Shown here: in pieces, positions 45,561 through 55,588 of the stretch
Layout of the letters: every line of letters starts with the position of its first letter
Position numbering within the stretch: position 1 is the stretch's first letter
Assembly (NCBI GenBank): GCA_965204155.1
Contig: OZ241971.1
Location: forward strand, 57,593 to 121,592
Direction: 5' to 3'
Source: Candidatus Rariloculaceae bacterium
Lineage (GTDB): Bacteria > Pseudomonadota > Gammaproteobacteria > Steroidobacterales > Rariloculaceae
Length of the DNA: 64,000 bases
Program-made: the position numbers and the translations under genes
Notes under the pieces: generated by a model
Databases searched by the model: none
The model's input: only the letters and a program-made list of their open reading frames with translations
Told to the model about the DNA's origin: nothing

Positions 45561-46904
45561 TCAAACCGGAACGTGCTCTTCCCGGTCCTGCAGCAACGTG
45601 CGCCCGACAAGCAGGAAGCAGATAGCGGCCGCCACATCCCCCGCCACCATGATCATCATGGCCGCGCGCAGGCTGTCTGCCGATCCCAGTGTGCATGAAA
45701 CACCCGCCTCGCTGTCCAGGCAAAGCCAGCGCAGGGCACTGTCCGCCGGGATCCCCATCCCCGCGAAGAAGTCGCTGAGGGCGCCCAGGATCGGCGGGCC
45801 CAGCGCCAGGCCCAGGAGGCTCACGAACAGCAGCAGGATGGCCACGGCCGTCGAACGCATGCGCGGCGGGGCGATGGACTGGTTGATGGCGAACATCGGC
45901 CCCAGATAGCAGAAATGGCAGACGACCGCGGCCATGAGAAAGATCATGGCCGTGCGCGGGCCGTCGGCGAACAGTCCCGTGAGGTAGAGCGGAACCCCCA
46001 GCGCGACCCCGATTCCCGGAAGCCAGCTCTGCGCCGTGGGGAATCGCCGCATCAGTCGGTCCGCCAGCACGCCGCCGGAGAAGGTCCCGATACCAGCGGC
46101 AACGCCCGTCACCATGCCGACGGAAAGACCAGCCGCGGCAAGGTTCAGCTCATGGACGCGCACGAAATATGAGGTCAGGTATTGCCCCAGGCTGAATCCG
46201 CCGAGGGCTGCGAAGACGGTTCCGGCGACGACGAAACGATAGGTCGGCTTGCCGAACAGGTACCGGGCGGCCGGAATCAGACGGCCGGCCGCCTTGGGCG
46301 GGGTGGTTCGTTGCGGTTCTCGCACCGTGAGCCGGATCAACAACGACAGCAGAATGCCCGCAACGCCCAGAACTCCGAACGTCACACGCCATCCGTAGTT
46401 GAATGCGATCCAGGAGGCGCCCACCGCGGCCAGCAGGTTGCCCATGGGCACGCCCAGGGCAAAGATCGAAAAAGCCGTGCCCCGGCGCTCGGGCGGGAAA
46501 TAGTCGGAAATCAACGACTGCGACGGCGGGGAGCAGCCGGCCTCCCCGATGCTGACGCCGATCCGGGCCAGCAGCAGGTGAAGGTAGCTTGCCGCCAGAC
46601 CGGTCACCGCGGTCATGGCGCTCCAGAGCCCGATGGCCAGGGAGACGATGAAGACCCGGTTGCCTCGGTCCGCCCAGCGCGCGATGGGGATCCCGGTGAC
46701 CGTATAGAGGATTGCGAACGCCGGGCCTCCGAGCAGCCCGAGCTGAAAATCCGAGAGCAAAAACTCGTTTCTCAGCGGCTCCTGGAGCACGCCCACGACG
46801 ACCCGGTCCAGGAAATTGAACGTATAACCCAGCAGCAGGCACAACAGCACGTATCCGCTGTAGGCACGGGTCGGCGGTGTTGCTGTGCCGGCTAGCGGCC
46901 GCAT
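45561..46904 (-). CDS. MFS transporter (spinster-like)
   Basis: NFLDR, RWADRGNR, GEAGCSPPSQSLISDYFP. Confidence 0.88.
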   Translation of the reverse strand: MRPLAGTATPPTRAYSGYVLLCLLLGYTFNFLDRVVVGVLQEPLRNEFLLSDFQLGLLGGPAFAILYTVTGIPIARWADRGNRVFIVSLAIGLWSAMTAVTGLAASYLHLLLARIGVSIGEAGCSPPSQSLISDYFPPERRGTAFSIFALGVPMGNLLAAVGASWIAFNYGWRVTFGVLGVAGILLSLLIRLTVREPQRTTPPKAAGRLIPAARYLFGKPTYRFVVAGTVFAALGGFSLGQYLTSYFVRVHELNLAAAGLSVGMVTGVAAGIGTFSGGVLADRLMRRFPTAQSWLPGIGVALGVPLYLTGLFADGPRTAMIFLMAAVVCHFCYLGPMFAINQSIAPPRMRSTAVAILLLFVSLLGLALGPPILGALSDFFAGMGIPADSALRWLCLDSEAGVSCTLGSADSLRAAMMIMVAGDVAAAICFLLVGRTLLQDREEHVPV

Positions 46905-48523
46905 AGCGTTCGCATCAGGATGAAAGCCTCCCGCGGGACCGCATCGCCCCGCCAGGCAACGTGGAAATCGGGCCGCGCCAGCACGAGCTTCCGAGCGTGC
47001 TCGGGACGGCGCGGCATGTCCACGACATCCAGTGGTGCGTCCATGGAACGGGCGGCTGCTACCAGTGTTTCCACCGAAACGTCAGGATCGTTGCGAAACA
47101 ATGTGTACCCTGCTCCCAGCGTGTCGTACAGGGATCTCCCGTCCGGCAATTCCATGTGCGGCATACGGCAACCGGGAACCGTAGACGGCGTGTAATTGTA
47201 AACGTCATAGGTGGGCGCGTTTTCGCCGTCATAGGCGATGATGGGCGACGCATCGTAAAAATAGCCGAAGTTGAGCCCGGCGCAGCAGTAGGAGTGGAGG
47301 TTGAGTTCGTAGATGTTCTCGCGGACGTATTCGCGTGCCGAAACGCCCGCGGGCGAGTCCTCCGCAATTTCCGCCGGCACGTCCCACCGGCTCTTCAGAT
47401 GCTTCATGGAGCTGTTCATTGCGAGCTCCGAAACTTGCCCGGTGATGGGGTGCCGTTCGGCGGCGTACGCATCGAGCATGCCCTCCCCTCCCCATCCCCG
47501 GAGAACGGCATCGAGAAGCCAGCCCAGGCCCATTGCGTCGGCGATCCCGGCGTTCATGCCGTAACCGCCGAAGGGAATCCAGACGTGGGCCGCGTCCCCG
47601 GCGAGAAACACGCGGCCTTCGCGCATGCGTGTGGTCACGAGCCGCCTCCCGACCCAGTCCTGTTCGCTGATGATCTCAAGTGGAAAGTCGTCATCGACCC
47701 CGAGTATGCGCCGTAGAGCAACGTCGCGAGGGACGCTCTGCGCCCTGGCGCCCGGGCGGAGATTGCTGTTAACCATCCACTCGCTTTCGCCGTCAATGCA
47801 AAACGACGTGCCCTGAATGTCCGGCGCAACGGTGACGATACCCCACGCCGGTCCGGCAGGCATCTTCTCGATCAGCCCCGGCGCGCGGATGTGGCTCGCC
47901 TGGACATGGGCGAGTTCGGGGTCGCCCTCGAATGCCGCCCCCATGCCCTTGCGCACGGCTGAGCGGGCGCCGTCGCAGCCCACAAGGAACCTTGCCTCAA
48001 TTTCCACGTCTCCAGCGGCCCTGCAAGCGGTAGCGAAAACCGCCGTACCGTCATCGGAGAAATCGTCCACTCGGGCGCCGAACATCAACTCCAGGCCTGG
48101 CGTCGCCTGCGCCGCCGCCATCATCACCGGTTCCATATGGATCTGGTTGATGCGGTGAGGCGGCTCCAGAGTGGGCCAGTGGCTGTCCACGCTCTCGTCG
48201 CCCCGCCGGCGCCCGGACCGGCCGGCGATCGGGATATGCCCTATTTCAAACCCCGTGAAGCTCGTGCGCAGTGAAACGCTGTGAGGATACTCGTCCGGCA
48301 GACCGGCAGCACGTACATCGTCCGCGAAACCAAGCCGGCGGAAAAACTCCATCGACCTCGCCGAGACGTGGTTGCAGCGAACCGTCAGCGGCTTGGGCGT
48401 CCGTCGCTCGTCAACGACAATCACGCCATGTCCCCGCTGCGCCAGGTCGATCCCCGCAACCAGGCCCACGGGGCCGGCGCCCACCACGAGGACATCGCAG
48501 ACTCTCTTGTTGTTGGTCACCAT
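46892..48523 (-). CDS. FAD-dependent monooxygenase (aromatic hydroxylase family)
   Basis: VVGAGPVG, VGCDGARS, FLAGDAAH..P.GG.GMN.GIADA, PGCRMPH, RPD.HVAWRG. Confidence 0.92.
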   Translation of the reverse strand: MVTNNKRVCDVLVVGAGPVGLVAGIDLAQRGHGVIVVDERRTPKPLTVRCNHVSARSMEFFRRLGFADDVRAAGLPDEYPHSVSLRTSFTGFEIGHIPIAGRSGRRRGDESVDSHWPTLEPPHRINQIHMEPVMMAAAQATPGLELMFGARVDDFSDDGTAVFATACRAAGDVEIEARFLVGCDGARSAVRKGMGAAFEGDPELAHVQASHIRAPGLIEKMPAGPAWGIVTVAPDIQGTSFCIDGESEWMVNSNLRPGARAQSVPRDVALRRILGVDDDFPLEIISEQDWVGRRLVTTRMREGRVFLAGDAAHVWIPFGGYGMNAGIADAMGLGWLLDAVLRGWGGEGMLDAYAAERHPITGQVSELAMNSSMKHLKSRWDVPAEIAEDSPAGVSAREYVRENIYELNLHSYCCAGLNFGYFYDASPIIAYDGENAPTYDVYNYTPSTVPGCRMPHMELPDGRSLYDTLGAGYTLFRNDPDVSVETLVAAARSMDAPLDVVDMPRRPEHARKLVLARPDFHVAWRGDAVPREAFILMRTLCGR

Positions 48524-48585
48524 CGGGGAACCTCGGGAGCACGGGACACTTCTGGTACCAATGATGACCGCTGCCCGAGATCAGA

Positions 48586-48601
48586 TCAATCGAATGATTG
48601 A
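48586..48601. promoter_or_regulatory. Palindromic operator candidate TCAATC-N4-GATTGA
   Basis: Perfect 6-bp arms in the divergent region between the monooxygenase and the TetR fusion. Related copies at 50657, 52691 and 55508. Confidence 0.55.
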
Positions 48602-48755
48602 AAATTCTTGTCTATTGTGGAGAATGCCCAACGAGTCCCGAACAACGGGACTCCGTTCTCCCATGCAAGGCCACCTGGCGCGAGCGACGCGCATTGCTTG
48701 TTACCAATTCAATCGTGTTAGGGTATTAGTCACATAATGACACGGTGGGTGGTCC

Positions 48756-49634
48756 ATGGCGGGTAAGCGGCACAGTCGATCCGAAATCGAGGGATTGCTG
48801 AAGAAGGCGGCCCGGCTCCAGGCCGGCGGGAAACGCGTCGTCGATGTCGCCGACAGGCTCGGCGTATCGAAACAGACGTTGTTTCGCTGGCGGCGAGAGT
48901 TCGGAGACGAGGTCAACGGGCTGGGCGTTCCCCAGCGGACGACTCGCAAGACGATTCTCGATACGGCGGAGCGATTGCTGGCCGAGGAAGGCATGGCCGT
49001 TTCGCTGCGGCGCATCATGGCCAAGGCAAACGTCAATATCGCCGCCATCCACTATCATTTCGGTGACCGTCAGGCATTGATCGATGCCCTGGTGGATCGA
49101 AGGCTCGGGACCATCAACGGCGCGCGTCTCAAGCGTTTGGCGGAAGCAAGGGAGAAATCCGATCCGGCCGGAATCGAGGACCTGGTACAGGCGTTCATGG
49201 GGCCCAGCGTGGAGGCGAGCCTGAGTGCGGACCCCGGTTGGCAGCACTTTTCTCGGTTTCTCGTCTGGCTGGTGAACGATCCGCAAACGACTTCCCGGAC
49301 CTTGCTCAAGAACGTCTACGGCGAGCTGCACCCCCGTTTCCAGGCTGCATTCCGCAAACGGAAGCCAGATTTATCGGAGACGGATTTTCACTGGCGATAC
49401 CACTCGATGATCGCGATCATGGCCGCAGCCGGCCATAATCGGGATCGCCTGATTCGACTGTCAGGGGGAGAGTGCGGTAACGAGGACTATTCGGCGACCA
49501 TGGCCGCGCTGACGCCCATTGCGGTCGCGATCTGGACCGCGCCTCCATCGAACGCCGGCGTCGAGCATGTCACCGTAGGCATCGAATCTCTCGATGCCGC
49601 TGCTGTTTCAACCGTGAACTACACGATGGGATAA
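48756..49634 (+). CDS. TetR/AcrR (PsrA-like) regulator with N-terminal IS3-family transposase OrfA-like HTH
   Basis: aa 1-50 KRHSRSEI..LL......G..V..VA.RLGVSKQTLFRWRREFG. aa ~60-110 TRKTILDTAERLLAEEG..SLRRI...ANVNIAAIHYHFG. Confidence 0.85.
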   Translation: MAGKRHSRSEIEGLLKKAARLQAGGKRVVDVADRLGVSKQTLFRWRREFGDEVNGLGVPQRTTRKTILDTAERLLAEEGMAVSLRRIMAKANVNIAAIHYHFGDRQALIDALVDRRLGTINGARLKRLAEAREKSDPAGIEDLVQAFMGPSVEASLSADPGWQHFSRFLVWLVNDPQTTSRTLLKNVYGELHPRFQAAFRKRKPDLSETDFHWRYHSMIAIMAAAGHNRDRLIRLSGGECGNEDYSATMAALTPIAVAIWTAPPSNAGVEHVTVGIESLDAAAVSTVNYTMG

Positions 49635-50597
49635 CCGCCCCAAGCCCTCGATCTCGATCTCGATTTCGCACTCGCGCTCCTGAAAGTTGATGTTGCGGTG
49701 AGCGCGCGGGTAGTTTCCCATGCCCTTTGCGGAAGTACCGCAACTGATGATGTCGCCCGGCTCGAGCGTGAAGTAGCGGCTTGCCTCGGCCACGAGTTGC
49801 TGGACGGAATAGGTGTAACTCGCCGTCGTATCCGACGAGAATTGTTCACCGTCTACGTACCCGTCGACGCGCAGGGTGTTCGGGTCCGGGATCTCGTCGG
49901 CGGTCGTGATCCACGGTCCCATCGGGCCGAAGGTATCGGTCGCCTTCGACCGCGCATGGTAAACAAAGTAGACGTCCCGATCTTCGGGGCCGTGCAATCT
50001 GCGCCAGGACAGGTGTTCAGGCTGCAGCAGGTCCGGTTCCCGCGTCGTCGCGATGCTGTCCATGCCGAACTTCATCCCGTGGGAGGTCACGTCGTCCATA
50101 ACGCTGTAGCCGAACACGAAATCCAGCGCGTCAGCTTCGTCGATGTTCCGCGCCCGCCTGCCGAGGATCACGCAAAGCTCCGGCTCCGGCATCGTGTGGC
50201 CATAGTGACTCTTTACGACCACGGACTTGCCATGCCCAATGAGACTGGACGGCGCCTTGAGAAAGAAATTCGGCACGCCGGGATCGACGTGCGCAGCCTT
50301 TCGAATGCCCACGTTATTGAATGCCACGCCGAAAATCTTCGTCGGATGGCGTTGCGGCGGCAGCCAGTCGGCCGACTCGATTTCCAGCAGCGGAACGCCA
50401 GCGCTGGCCAGACTGGCCACAACCTCCGAGACCCTTCGCAGCTCTCCCGGACCGGCCTCAACCAACGCCTGAAACGTAGCGGGAGCGCCTTGCATTGCGC
50501 AGGCACGGTAGGCGTCGCGCAAAACCACCAGATGGGCCTCGTCGACCCTGACAACCAGTTCCGGCCTGTCCTCAATCAGTATCGTTCCGAACTGCAC
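49608..50597 (-). CDS. Fumarylacetoacetate hydrolase family protein
   Basis: KIFGVAFN, FFLKAPSS, PEPEL, GYSVMDDVT, K..DTFGPMGP, LEPGDIISCGT; GTG start with GGGAGG RBS. Confidence 0.88.
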   Translation of the reverse strand: MQFGTILIEDRPELVVRVDEAHLVVLRDAYRACAMQGAPATFQALVEAGPGELRRVSEVVASLASAGVPLLEIESADWLPPQRHPTKIFGVAFNNVGIRKAAHVDPGVPNFFLKAPSSLIGHGKSVVVKSHYGHTMPEPELCVILGRRARNIDEADALDFVFGYSVMDDVTSHGMKFGMDSIATTREPDLLQPEHLSWRRLHGPEDRDVYFVYHARSKATDTFGPMGPWITTADEIPDPNTLRVDGYVDGEQFSSDTTASYTYSVQQLVAEASRYFTLEPGDIISCGTSAKGMGNYPRAHRNINFQERECEIEIEIEGLGRLSHRVVHG

Positions 50598-50722
50598 GGT
50601 CCCTCCCTCTGCGGATACGGTCTCCGGCCGACATCGTAGACTCTCTGGCGCCGAATTAAAACGGTCGATAGAATCCGCACATAGCAGCGGCCCCGACCGC
50701 GAACGCGAACAACCTCGGAAAG

Positions 50723-51175
50723 ATGCCAATGAAACCTGAAGAAAGAAGAGCCATCGAGTGGGACTGCGCCCAACTGCTCGCCCGGTTCTATCGTTGCCTG
50801 GACGAGCGCGCCTACCGGGAGACGGCAGACCTCTTTGTGGAGGATGGCGAGTGGCTTCGCATGGGTGAACTGCTAAGCGGCAGGGACAAGATTCTGAGCG
50901 TGCTGGAGCAGCGGTCGGAATCGGTTGCCATCCGCCACTTGCTTTCGAACGTTCTCGTCGATGTCGACAGCCCCGAATCCGCTACGGTCCATGCGTACGT
51001 CACCGTCTTCATCCACCGCGATGGAGAAGCGGCCGCGTCGCCGGCCACATTGGAGCACCCCGTTGCGATCTGGTCCCTGCGAGTTCGGTGCGTATCGGTC
51101 GAAGGCGTCTGGAAGACCCAAAGCCATCGCGGCGAACGGGTAATGGTCCGAAGGGATGTCGCGCCTCTGCCTTGA
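50723..51175 (+). CDS. SnoaL-like/NTF2-fold protein
   Basis: LLARFYRCLDER, LF..DGEW, L.GR..I, IRHLLSNV.V. Confidence 0.82.
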   Translation: MPMKPEERRAIEWDCAQLLARFYRCLDERAYRETADLFVEDGEWLRMGELLSGRDKILSVLEQRSESVAIRHLLSNVLVDVDSPESATVHAYVTVFIHRDGEAAASPATLEHPVAIWSLRVRCVSVEGVWKTQSHRGERVMVRRDVAPLP

Positions 51176-51500: not shown

Positions 51501-51947
51501 TTACGTAGCAGTTGCGTAGGCCGTGTCTGGTTCGAGGTACGCAATTCCCGAGAACGGCAATTGCCATGACTCGGCTTGAACGGACTCCCTCAGGTCGTGC
51601 AAAGACGCCGTGTTGAGTGAGTAGTGCCTTTCCGCATTCAACCAAAGGTTCCATACATCCTGCGGGGCAACCTTGAGAATGTGCTCGATGGTGCCGTAAA
51701 TCTTCAAGTGTTCGGTGATGGTCCCCGCCAAACCTGTCACGAACCGGTGCTTGACATCCTCAAGATCGTGCCCTGCGGCTGCATAGTCAAGCTCCAGACC
51801 GTGGGCGAACCAACAGTCTTCATCTTGAATAATAAGTACCCTTAGCGCGTTCACATATATCGTATGTACATCATCATTTTGTTGATGCACAACACTTGCG
51901 CTATCGCCAGGCGAACCTTTGGACGTCAAGTTGGGGTCATCGTTCAC
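51501..51947 (-). CDS. HicB-like (partial RNase H fold) protein in a low-GC segment
   Basis: LRVLIIQDEDCWFAHGLELDYAAAGHDLEDVKHRF matches the HicB N-domain pattern. Start uncertain (GTG 51947 or TTG 52034). Confidence 0.55.
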   Translation of the reverse strand: MNDDPNLTSKGSPGDSASVVHQQNDDVHTIYVNALRVLIIQDEDCWFAHGLELDYAAAGHDLEDVKHRFVTGLAGTITEHLKIYGTIEHILKVAPQDVWNLWLNAERHYSLNTASLHDLRESVQAESWQLPFSGIAYLEPDTAYATAT

Positions 51948-52221
51948 TATGCACTCACGGAGACAAAAAATAGAAAATGCGATGAATGGAAGGTCAGTCG
52001 AGAGGGGAACGCTTTCGGCGCTGCCTTTTAGCAAAAATACATGAACATGTCAAGAGTATTTCCGCACAACTAGGATATTACTGAAGCGATATACGAAAGT
52101 ACAATACTTTGATGGGATATATGCACAAAAATTCCAGAAATGGCAGAGAGTTCGCCATGAGCAATTAGCCAATTCGTGGGGGAATCGGTCCGGAAGAAAG
52201 TGGGGTTGTGTCTAACCCGCA

Positions 52222-52650: not shown

Positions 52651-52778
52651 GAGTGGTTCTCCTCGAAGTCAGATGTGTCTGCAAGCCGTTTCAATCATAT
52701 GATAGAGTAACCGGCATTCTATCGTGCAGTGAATGGAAAACGATGAACATTACGTTTCGGAAGACGGAGTCCTGACCG

Positions 52779-55498: not shown

Positions 55499-55588
55499 GG
55501 ACCAGATTCTATCGAATGACTTAACGATGCGATAGACAGCCTGACCGGGCAAGACCTGTTGCAGGAGCGACAGAACGGCCTCAATGCA

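What the first reader, a model, noticed from the sequence alone, without database searches (positions are those of the whole stretch)
48756..49634. IS3-family transposase HTH fused to a TetR repressor (two DNA-binding heads)
Seen: the first ~50 aa (KRHS.SEI..LL.....G..V.DVA..LGVSKQTLFRWRREFG) match the IS3/IS407-group OrfA pattern. They continue in frame into a complete PsrA-like TetR HTH and ligand domain. There is no OrfB/DDE gene and I found no terminal inverted repeats. Known: IS3 OrfA HTH binds IS ends and represses transposition. Inference: a domesticated transposase domain giving a ligand-responsive repressor a second DNA specificity. It controls an aromatic-catabolism cluster and might also bind IS ends.
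Basis: partly seen in the sequence, partly recalled or inferred. Interest (0 to 1): 0.7.

Follow-up and report, generated by a model that had tools for sequence, protein, structure and literature searches.

The report
TetR repressor with captured transposase head
A ligand-sensing repressor of an aromatic-degradation gene cluster has permanently absorbed the DNA-binding head of a jumping-gene (IS3) regulator, so each dimer has four DNA-reading heads; the fusion is real, conserved and undescribed, but what the extra head does is untested.

Summary
The ORF at 48756-49634 (+), 292 aa, scores above Pfam's own cut-offs for HTH_Tnp_1 (aa 4-62), TetR_N (67-112) and TetR_C_30 (145-258).

The fusion is not an assembly artefact. 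Seven 90%-identity clusters have the same architecture, at 96-51% identity. They come from at least eight independent assemblies of uncultured Gammaproteobacteria (Ca. Rariloculaceae-like).

The extra head aligns without gaps from Met1 with IS3-family OrfA proteins, at 42-52% identity. It lacks their leucine zipper, orfB/DDE gene and terminal repeats. It is single-copy and under purifying selection (dN/dS 0.03-0.36).

New here:
- The TetR part has a PsrA-box-like operator, TCWATC-N4-GATWGA. It occurs at two promoters in this cluster and in homologous loci. Unfused relatives in other phyla carry it upstream of their own genes.
- Every fused gene instead carries a 36-bp composite element upstream. 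It keeps one TetR half-site, bracketed by a family-specific inverted repeat (TGTTACC...GGTCACA). These arms are candidate sites for the extra heads.

That four-head model is an inference. Binding of IS ends is unlikely, because the genome holds no cognate IS3 element.

Verdict: a new variant of a known kind, of moderate interest.

The parts
48756..49634 (+). Whole fusion gene (292 aa plus stop): IS3-OrfA-type HTH, short linker, then a PsrA/NicR2-like TetR repressor
   Evidence: ORF; domains; full-length homologs; AF2 mean pLDDT 88.9
48765..48941 (+). HTH_Tnp_1 domain (aa 4-62). Three helices at aa 8-23, 28-35 and 39-52. The third helix, taken as the recognition helix from its position in the HTH, is largely invariant across the family (S38 K39 Q40 T41 F43 R44 W45 R46 R47).
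   Evidence: 33.8 bits vs 24.1; helices, pLDDT 85-96; invariant columns; gap-free alignment from Met1 with OrfA proteins; dN/dS 0.03-0.36
48912..48932 (+). Linker (aa 53-59) at the place where OrfA proteins continue into their leucine zipper. It is the least constrained part of the protein.
   Evidence: pLDDT about 65; higher dN/dS in most unsaturated pairs; alignment
48954..49091 (+). TetR_N DNA-binding domain (aa 67-112), including VNIAAIHYHFG, taken here as the recognition helix
   Evidence: 54.7 bits; invariant in the family; the same motif occurs in unfused relatives
49188..49529 (+). TetR_C_30 ligand-binding and dimerisation domain (aa 145-258)
   Evidence: 85.4 bits; PDB sequence matches to PsrA 2fbq (6.8e-28) and NicR 5fgl; Foldseek matches to NicR2 and PsrA, TM to target 0.78
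48699..48734 (.). 36-bp composite element, 57 to 22 nt upstream of the ATG: arm TGTTACC (48699-48705), AAT, TetR half-site TCAATC (48709-48714), a degenerate right half, then arm AGTCACA (48728-48734; GGTCACA in relatives). It is found once per locus, upstream of every fused gene. Conservation begins exactly at the TG.
   Evidence: Arm start-to-start spacing is 29 nt in the six loci that carry a recognisable right arm (L003's right arm is degenerate). The arms are 6/7 complementary in 4 of 7 loci (about 0.002 per random 36-mer). Unfused relatives lack the arms.
48586..48601 (.). Perfect 16-bp palindrome TCAATCGAATGATTGA (operator of the TetR heads), in the divergent region between the FAD monooxygenase gene and the regulator. 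It overlaps a sigma-70-like -35 box (TTGAAA, 48598).
52691..52706 (.). Second operator, TCAATCATATGATAGA, between the divergent GlcG/HbpS-like gene (start 52650, minus strand) and the Amidohydro_2 gene (start 52779, plus strand)
   Evidence: Conserved in L022 and L023.
55508..55523 (.). Weak operator-like site, TCTATCGAATGACTTA (3 mismatches to the strict pattern), at the 5' end of the alpha/beta hydrolase gene. Doubtful.
46892..48523 (-). Divergent neighbour: FAD-dependent aromatic-ring hydroxylase, a probable regulated target
   Evidence: FAD_binding_3 220 bits, Rng_hyd_C
49608..50729 (-). Convergent neighbour: fumarylacetoacetate-hydrolase-family enzyme. This family recurs beside the fused gene in L001, L002, L003 and L005.

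Best explanation
SHOWN
- This is a single-copy, vertically kept host gene. The first ~55 codons of an IS3-family orfA (its own start codon and three-helix HTH, without zipper, frameshift site or orfB) are fused in frame to a complete PsrA/NicR2-like TetR repressor.
- The fusion arose once. All fused proteins share the same junction and at least 51% identity, whereas the nearest unfused TetRs are at most about 38% identical.
- The head has been kept under purifying selection in a small clade of uncultured Gammaproteobacteria (Ca. Rariloculaceae-like). It lies beside ring-cleavage and FAA-hydrolase genes.

INFERRED FROM COMPARATIVE SEQUENCE (strong)
- The TetR heads bind the 16-bp PsrA-box-like palindrome TCWATC-N4-GATWGA. 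This site sits at catabolic promoters of the cluster. Unfused relatives in other phyla carry it upstream of their own genes.

INFERRED (weaker, about 35-40%)
- In OrfA, the zipper dimerises the HTH. Here the TetR dimer takes that role, giving a four-headed repressor.
- At its own promoter the canonical palindrome has decayed to one half-site. It is bracketed symmetrically by the family-specific inverted repeat TGTTACC...GGTCACA. Each arm centre lies about 14.5 bp from the dyad, roughly one helical turn outside where the TetR heads sit.
- In this model the two captured heads occupy the arms. The composite site then gives tight autorepression. In the L003-type loci, where the regulator heads the operon, it would control the whole operon.
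- An aromatic pathway intermediate bound in the TetR_C_30 pocket would release the protein.
For: - Architecture and scores.
- Same architecture in P0001-P0007, in 24 sequence variants of cluster 1, and in GenBank MAGs L022 and L023.
- Start and head conserved with no indels.
- dN/dS of the head is 0.03-0.36, similar to the TetR_C domain.
- IS3 origin: tblastn hits fall on annotated IS3 transposases. Nearest single-domain relatives are OrfA proteins with full-length HTH_Tnp_1 including the zipper. The top fold match of the isolated head is an IS OrfA-type protein, 2rn7, though not significantly.
- No IS features. No compositional anomaly.
- Operator counts: 3 perfect sites in 5.03 Mb against a mean of 0.3 in shuffles. 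Two of the three lie within 4.1 kb of the gene.
- Operators also occur at divergent promoters in L001, L002 and L005.
- Perfect sites lie 8-90 nt upstream of unfused relatives' genes in Planctomycetia, Calditrichota, Rhizobium, Binatia and others, against about 0.8 expected in 815 kb.
- Published PsrA site at rpoS: TTCAAAC-N4-GTTTGAA (PMC13104628).
- Composite element. In G000 it is the only site matching the arm pair with at most 1 mismatch.
- AF2: a well-folded head joined by a 7-residue linker of lower confidence.
Against: - No binding, expression or ligand data exist.
- The conserved arms overlap possible promoter elements. One reading is TTCAAT-18 nt-CAYAAT; another is an extended -10, TGnTAnnnT, in 5 of 7 loci. 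Part of the conservation may therefore be promoter conservation, not a protein site.
- Head and arms are both nearly invariant, so no covariation test is possible.
- One arm-pair match with at most 1 mismatch is what shuffled genomes also give (1-4). The case rests on cross-locus conservation, not on genome statistics.
- L002 and L003 have weaker arm symmetry.
- The HTH_Tnp_1/HTH_23 fold is also common in non-IS multi-HTH proteins, which top the library search by summed score.
Confidence: 0.55

Rival explanations
1. The captured head is a generic affinity booster. It contacts flanking DNA with little or no sequence specificity, much as the N-terminal extension of SimR contacts the minor groove. 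The TGTTACC/GGTCACA blocks are then promoter elements or the site of another factor.
For: TetR N-terminal extensions that add non-specific DNA contacts are documented (SimR, PMC3241653). The arms overlap plausible -35/-10 or extended -10 motifs. The catabolic operators at 48586 and 52691 have no arms, so the head is not needed for site recognition there.
Against: The helix taken as the recognition helix (SKQT[LF]FRWRR) is largely invariant across 51%-identical proteins, which points to specific contacts. The arms form an inverted repeat centred exactly on the TetR half-site dyad. They are absent from unfused relatives.
Confidence: 0.25
2. The head is a functionless passenger: a frozen remnant of an old IS insertion that the TetR tolerates.
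For: Catabolic operators need only the TetR heads. One genome of the genus (G012/L024) has lost most of the gene, and most genomes of the genus lack it.
Against: dN/dS of the head is 0.03-0.36 across lineages whose synonymous sites are saturated. Residues 1-62 have no indels or stops in the eight sequences aligned. There are 21 invariant residues within aa 1-50. A neutral 60-codon leader would have decayed.
Confidence: 0.07
3. One reading: the head still recognises ends of an IS3-family element and so couples IS activity to the aromatic signal.
For: In IS3-family elements the OrfA/OrfAB HTH is the specific DNA-binding domain (PMC2909936) and, from established knowledge, it binds the element's ends. 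IS3 relatives of the head carry a conserved GAAGTGGTCC block 50-57 nt upstream of orfA, at a similar distance to TGTTACC here.
Against: The genome has one IS3-type element, with a stop in its rve domain. Its OrfA shows no BLASTP similarity to the head. No closer OrfA was found in 400 genomes of the class; the best was 44% identical. The similarity of the upstream element to IS left ends is no better than in shuffles (11/14 observed; shuffled maxima 9-12).
Confidence: 0.03
4. The head is not transposase-derived. It comes from a non-mobile HTH_23/HTH_Tnp_1-type regulator, and the Pfam name misleads.
For: By total score, the top hits in the 1.84-billion-protein library are proteins with 5-11 tandem HTH repeats and no transposase features. 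The best identities to OrfA proteins are only 42-52%.
Against: The best single-domain matches are all OrfA-shaped: HTH followed by an RLKELERENARLK-type zipper, 90-120 aa. Homology runs gap-free from the initiator Met and ends exactly at the HTH/zipper boundary. Most of the best-listed annotated plasmid matches are IS3 family transposases (17 of the 25 rows shown; 7 have no annotated feature and 1 is a sulfotransferase-family gene).
Confidence: 0.1

Closest known systems
PsrA (P. aeruginosa PA3006, PDB 2fbq) and NicR2/NicR (P. putida, PDB 5fgl/5fhp): TetR_C_30-type repressors
   Same: Residues 60-258 are this kind of protein. It is the best PDB sequence match (6.8e-28) and fold match (TM to target 0.78). 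The inferred operator, TCWATC-N4-GATWGA, is close to the PsrA box TTCAAAC-N4-GTTTGAA. Like these proteins, it probably autoregulates and controls catabolic genes.
   Different: It is not a PsrA ortholog (89.7 bits against a cut-off of 300). It sits with aromatic ring-cleavage genes rather than fatty-acid genes. It carries a 60-residue extra HTH domain that no solved TetR covers.
IS3-family OrfA proteins (for example IS911 OrfA, IS2 InsA)
   Same: Same HTH_Tnp_1 three-helix head, aligned from Met1 at 42-52% identity. In these proteins the HTH is the sequence-specific DNA-binding part and needs a dimerisation module (PMC2909936).
   Different: No leucine zipper, no frameshift site, no orfB/DDE gene, no terminal repeats, and a single copy per genome. 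The recognition helix has family-specific changes: SEQTYYRWRK becomes SKQT[LF]FRWRR.
SimR (Streptomyces TetR with an N-terminal extension that binds the minor groove; PMC3241653)
   Same: A TetR whose DNA contacts are extended by an N-terminal addition.
   Different: The SimR extension is a flexible Arg/Lys-rich arm. Here the addition is a folded, independent HTH domain of foreign origin.
QacR-type long operators and double-TetR proteins such as Mce3R (PDB 9b7y)
   Same: Four HTH heads engage one long operator. For QacR (two dimers on one long inverted repeat) this rests on established knowledge; Mce3R, with two TetR units in one chain, appears.
   Different: All four of their heads are TetR-type. 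Here two heads would be TetR-type and two transposase-type, within a single dimer.
Transposase capture in eukaryotes (SETMAR; KRAB/SCAN-transposase fusions, bioRxiv 10.1101/2020.05.07.082677)
   Same: A transposase DNA-binding domain is fused to a host domain, kept by selection, and no longer mobile.
   Different: This case is prokaryotic. Only the small OrfA head is captured, and the partner is already a DNA-binding repressor.

Membership tests
TetR family of regulators (TFR) | N-terminal TetR_N helix-turn-helix | tested here: met
   PF00440, 54.7 bits against a cut-off of 24, aa 67-112
TetR family of regulators (TFR) | All-helical C-terminal ligand-binding and dimerisation domain | tested here: met
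   TetR_C_30, 85.4 bits. The AF2 model is all-helical. Foldseek matches NicR2 and PsrA with TM to target 0.78.
TetR family of regulators (TFR) | Palindromic operator near its own gene or a divergent target | tested here: met
   TCWATC-N4-GATWGA at 48586 and 52691, in homologous loci, and upstream of unfused relatives. This is sequence evidence only.
TetR family of regulators (TFR) | Ligand-induced release from DNA | not testable with these tools
   Needs purified protein and candidate aromatic intermediates
PsrA equivalog (NCBIfam NF053516) | Score at or above the curated cut-off of 300 bits | tested here: not met
   89.7 bits
IS3-family insertion sequence / OrfA | HTH_Tnp_1 head at the N-terminus | tested here: met
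   33.8 bits against 24.1. Gap-free alignment with OrfA proteins from Met1.
IS3-family insertion sequence / OrfA | Leucine zipper after the HTH | tested here: not met
   Profile positions 58-75 are not matched. In alignment A5 the zipper region is replaced by the linker and TetR.
IS3-family insertion sequence / OrfA | Overlapping orfB with a DDE (rve) domain and a frameshift site | tested here: not met
   The downstream gene is a convergent FAA hydrolase. The only rve match in the genome is at 1.428 Mb.
IS3-family insertion sequence / OrfA | Terminal inverted repeats (TG...CA) and multiple copies | tested here: not met
   No flanking IS-type inverted repeats. One copy per genome.
Domesticated transposase-derived gene (operational criteria) | Single copy, immobile, orthologs in related genomes in comparable neighbourhoods, purifying selection on the captured domain | tested here: met
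   (loci beside FAA hydrolase, ring-cleavage dioxygenase, DUF6152 and MFS genes). (dN/dS 0.03-0.36). (host-like GC).

The most novel reading that the evidence does not exclude
The protein head and its DNA site were domesticated together. An IS3-family element landed in the right half of the ancestral TetR operator. Its left end (promoter plus OrfA-binding site) and the first ~55 codons of orfA were then welded to the repressor. This would have produced a four-headed, ligand-controlled repressor whose composite operator is half TetR box and half fossil IS end.
Probability: 0.12. Interest if true: 0.78.

Novelty: new variant of a known kind. Interest (0 to 1): 0.55.

Why it matters
TetR-family repressors are among the most numerous and most engineered bacterial sensors. 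They are almost always built as one HTH plus one ligand domain. A natural TetR that carries a second, unrelated HTH per subunit would show how operator length and specificity can be extended by domain capture.

It is also a clean prokaryotic example of transposase-domain domestication. That process is well documented in eukaryotes but rarely in bacteria.

The comparison offers a ready natural experiment on how a cis-element co-evolves with a new DNA-binding head. Unfused relatives carry a full palindrome. Fused genes carry a half-site plus new arms.

In practice, the TCWATC-N4-GATWGA operator and the family's aromatic-pathway context also define a candidate biosensor module.

Tried and rejected
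1. Fossil left-end idea. I compared the 60 nt upstream of seven fused genes with the 60 nt upstream of orfA in eight IS3 relatives from plasmids. The best 14-nt window was 11/14, and the maximum in 200 shuffles ranged 9-12, so this is not significant. Their left ends are of the TGAyCTGCCCCC...GAAGTGGTCC type.
2. Closer OrfA donors. None was found in the window's own genome: two IS66 TnpA genes and one unrelated IS3 OrfA. None was found in 400 genomes of the class, where the best was 44% identical. A word-based search with the 62-aa head found nothing.
3. More fused family members. A profile search of 5.8 billion proteins and 300 genomes of the order added none. Two apparently longer relatives, in G662 and G590, are ordinary TetRs. 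A Gemmatimonadaceae protein matched from residue 1 but has only a disordered leader and no HTH.
4. Arms beside the catabolic palindromes. None were found.
5. Genome-wide arm pairs. One hit with at most 1 mismatch is what shuffles also give.
6. A sigma-54 or CRP reading of the arms. I rejected both on spacing, by reasoning from the sequences.
7. A 16-nt inverted repeat at 48782/49641. It looks like chance: both arms encode 'EIEGL', on opposite strands.
8. Literature. No paper in the held library joins HTH_Tnp_1 with TetR in this sense.
9. Read or RNA evidence.

Full report
**1. What is there**

The window holds one ORF at 48756-49634 (+), 292 aa. Pfam places three domains above their curated cut-offs:
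- HTH_Tnp_1, aa 4-62: 33.8 bits against 24.1, matching profile positions 5-57 of 75.
- TetR_N, aa 67-112: 54.7 bits.
- TetR_C_30, aa 145-258: 85.4 bits.

The best NCBIfam match is PsrA, but at 89.7 bits against a cut-off of 300. The protein is therefore PsrA-like, not PsrA.

The AF2 model is confident (mean pLDDT 88.9). It shows a three-helix head (helices 8-23, 28-35, 39-52), a 7-residue linker of lower confidence, and then a standard all-helical TetR body. The body superposes on NicR2 and PsrA. No solved TetR covers the head.

**2. Is the fusion real?**

Yes.
- Seven 90%-identity clusters of full-length proteins (284-293 aa) have the same Pfam architecture, at 96-51% identity.
- The cluster holding the window's protein has 24 sequence variants from NCBI, ENA and Logan assemblies. 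None of them is named.
- I recovered DNA for the gene from five metagenome contigs (L001-L005) and two GenBank MAGs. One MAG is labelled Candidatus Rariloculaceae and the other Gammaproteobacteria.
- The start MAG[KR]RH is invariant. Residues 1-62 have no indels or stops in the eight sequences aligned. The helix taken as the recognition helix, SKQT[LF]FRWRR, is largely invariant.
- Nei-Gojobori dN/dS for the head is 0.03-0.36 in pairs that are not saturated. This is comparable to the TetR_C domain (0.08-0.29) and somewhat higher than TetR_N (0.03-0.22).
- Two listed relatives (P0008, P0009) are broken copies. In genome G012 only a 397-nt internal remnant survives.

**3. Where does the head come from?**

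- By tblastn, residues 1-50 hit 56 plasmid records at 42-49% identity. Seventeen of the 25 best-listed matches fall on genes annotated 'IS3 family transposase'; seven have no annotated feature and one is a sulfotransferase-family gene.
- In a library of 1.84 billion representatives, the best single-domain matches are 90-120-aa proteins at 46-52% identity. Each has the HTH followed by an RLKELERENARLK-type leucine zipper, which is the OrfA shape.
- The alignment is gap-free from the initiator Met to WRREYG. Homology ends exactly where OrfA proteins enter the zipper.
- So the gene has kept orfA's own start codon and head, and the zipper is replaced by the TetR body.
- Nothing else of an IS remains. 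There is no orfB: the next gene is a convergent FAA hydrolase, and the only rve match in the 5.03-Mb genome is 1.32 Mb away and carries a stop. There are no flanking terminal repeats. GC content is host-like. There is one copy per genome.
- No close donor was found. The genome's own IS3 OrfA is unrelated. The best match in 400 genomes of the class is 44% identical.
- One caveat: by summed score, the library search is topped by proteins with 5-11 tandem HTH repeats. The fold is therefore also used outside insertion sequences.

**4. Distribution and context**

Fused genes were found only in the window's genus among the GTDB representatives searched: G000, G001 and G014, plus the remnant in G012, out of 17 genomes. 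The order-wide search added none. Fused genes also occur in metagenome contigs.

Unfused relatives of the TetR part are 29-38% identical. They are common in the same order and in other phyla.

The neighbours recur: FAA hydrolase, LigB or intradiol-type dioxygenases, GlcG/HbpS-like, GFO/IDH/MocA oxidoreductase, DUF6152 proteins, MFS transporters and sulfatases. In L003 the regulator heads a homoprotocatechuate-type operon (Aldedh, LigB, FAA hydrolase, HpcH/HpaI).

**5. Cis-elements (new in this stage)**

(a) A 16-bp palindrome, TCWATC-N4-GATWGA.
- It has 3 perfect copies in the whole genome, against a mean of 0.3 in block shuffles. Two of them are in this cluster. One is at 48586, between the FAD monooxygenase gene and the regulator. 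The other is at 52691, between the GlcG-like and Amidohydro_2 genes.
- Homologous loci carry it at divergent catabolic promoters: L001 7858, L002 12605, L005 4960 and 10721, and L022/L023.
- The decisive point is that unfused relatives from Planctomycetia, Calditrichota, Rhizobium, Aquamicrobium, Binatia and others carry the same palindrome 8-90 nt upstream of their own genes. There are nine perfect sites, against about 0.8 expected in 815 kb.
- The palindrome therefore belongs to the TetR heads. It resembles the footprinted PsrA site TTCAAAC-N4-GTTTGAA (PMC13104628).
- An earlier first-reader note (e1-5263023) listed four sites. Two (48586, 52691) are solid. The other two (50657, 55508) have three mismatches and are doubtful.

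(b) A 36-bp composite element upstream of every fused gene.
- It lies at 48699-48734 in the window, 57 to 22 nt upstream of the ATG.
- Its layout is TGTTACC-AAT-TCAATC-RTGN-(degenerate half)-NNN-GGTCACA.
- Conservation starts exactly at the TG, and the sequences upstream of it are unrelated between loci.
- The outer 7-mers form an inverted repeat, 6/7 complementary in 4 of 7 loci (about 0.002 per random 36-mer). Their start-to-start spacing is a constant 29 nt in the six loci with a recognisable right arm.
- Their dyad centre coincides with the centre of a 16-bp TetR-type site that keeps only its left half.
- Unfused relatives have no such arms.

**6. Mechanism proposed**

Shown: the architecture, its single origin, selection on the head, and the IS3 affinity.

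Strongly inferred: the TetR heads bind TCWATC-N4-GATWGA and repress the catabolic promoters, and a pathway intermediate releases the protein.

Inferred with about 35-40% confidence:
- The TetR dimer replaces OrfA's zipper as the dimerisation module for the captured heads.
- At the gene's own promoter those heads bind the two arms. Each arm centre is about 14.5 bp from the dyad, so the next major groove on the same face is reachable through the 7-residue linker.
- This compensates for the lost half-site and gives a four-headed complex over the promoter.

Caveats:
- The arms overlap plausible promoter motifs: TTCAAT-18-CAYAAT, or an extended -10 (TGnTAnnnT) in 5 of 7 loci. A sigma-70-like promoter also overlaps the 48586 palindrome.
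- Neither the head nor the arms vary enough for a covariation test.

**7. Rivals**

- Non-specific affinity booster (SimR-like): 0.25.
- Functionless passenger: 0.07. Selection argues against it.
- IS-end binding: 0.03. The genome has no cognate IS.
- Head not transposase-derived: 0.10.

**8. Novelty**

- I found no paper in the held library describing an HTH_Tnp_1-TetR protein.
- None of the family members carries a name.
- Other notes of this scan report transposase heads fused to other host proteins, including an IS481-TetR case. I did not check those notes. They suggest the theme recurs, which tempers the surprise.
- Verdict: a new variant of a known kind, namely a TetR repressor with an added, domesticated OrfA head. 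Interest is moderate.

**9. Limits**

There are no binding, expression or ligand data. Only single-chain AF2 modelling was available.

Noticed in passing
proteins P0038-P0049: By summed score, the best library hits for the 62-aa head are 365-957-aa proteins. Each has 5-11 tandem copies of an HTH_23/HTH_Tnp_1-type motif and no obvious transposase domain. This is an unexplained multi-HTH repeat family.
   Followed up: partly
L024 6000-6396 (G012, OY761822.1): A genome of the same genus retains only a 397-nt internal fragment of the fusion gene (aa 78-209, 85% nt identity). Homology stops abruptly on both sides, so this is a gene remnant.
   Followed up: yes
L023 2102 vs 6001: In MAG OZ242031 the monooxygenase-side palindrome lies about 3.9 kb from the regulator. 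The sequence upstream of the 36-bp composite element is unrelated to the window's. The locus has been rearranged right at the element's TG boundary.
   Followed up: partly
G000:C1:3666749 (L102 4250-4265): The third perfect copy of the operator (TCAATCCCATGATTGA) lies at the 3' end of a thiolase-like gene, about 190 nt upstream of a family III CoA-transferase. It may be a distant regulon member, or chance.
   Followed up: partly
window 51700-52150: An AT-rich islet (GC 0.42-0.48, against about 0.60-0.65 in the flanks) lies between the SnoaL-like and GlcG-like genes.
   Followed up: no
G000:C1:562300 and 3494582 (L006, L007); 1428322-1429055 (L009): The genome's mobile-element load looks small. 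It has two copies of an IS66-type TnpA/TnpB (same score) and a single IS3-type element whose rve domain contains a TGA.
   Followed up: partly
window 48553-48562 and 48699-48708: There is a direct repeat, TGGTACCAAT / TGTTACCAAT. The first copy lies about 30 nt upstream of the monooxygenase start codon. It resembles the left arm of the composite element but is not conserved in L023.
   Followed up: partly
window 48782-48797 / 49641-49656: A 16-nt inverted repeat (88% complementary) brackets the gene. Both arms encode the peptide EIEGL, one in the regulator and one in the convergent FAA hydrolase. It is probably chance.
   Followed up: yes
window 48598-48625 and 48678-48692: A sigma-70-like promoter (TTGAAA-16-GAGAAT) overlaps the right half of the 48586 palindrome. 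A terminator-like hairpin sits just upstream of the composite element. The regulator may have two promoters.
   Followed up: no
protein P0122: A 60-aa metagenomic ORF carries the first ~30 residues of the family's head (GGKRHSPSEIEDMLMEAVELQAGGKRIADVADNL), followed by unrelated sequence. It is another broken copy or a contig-end artefact.
   Followed up: no
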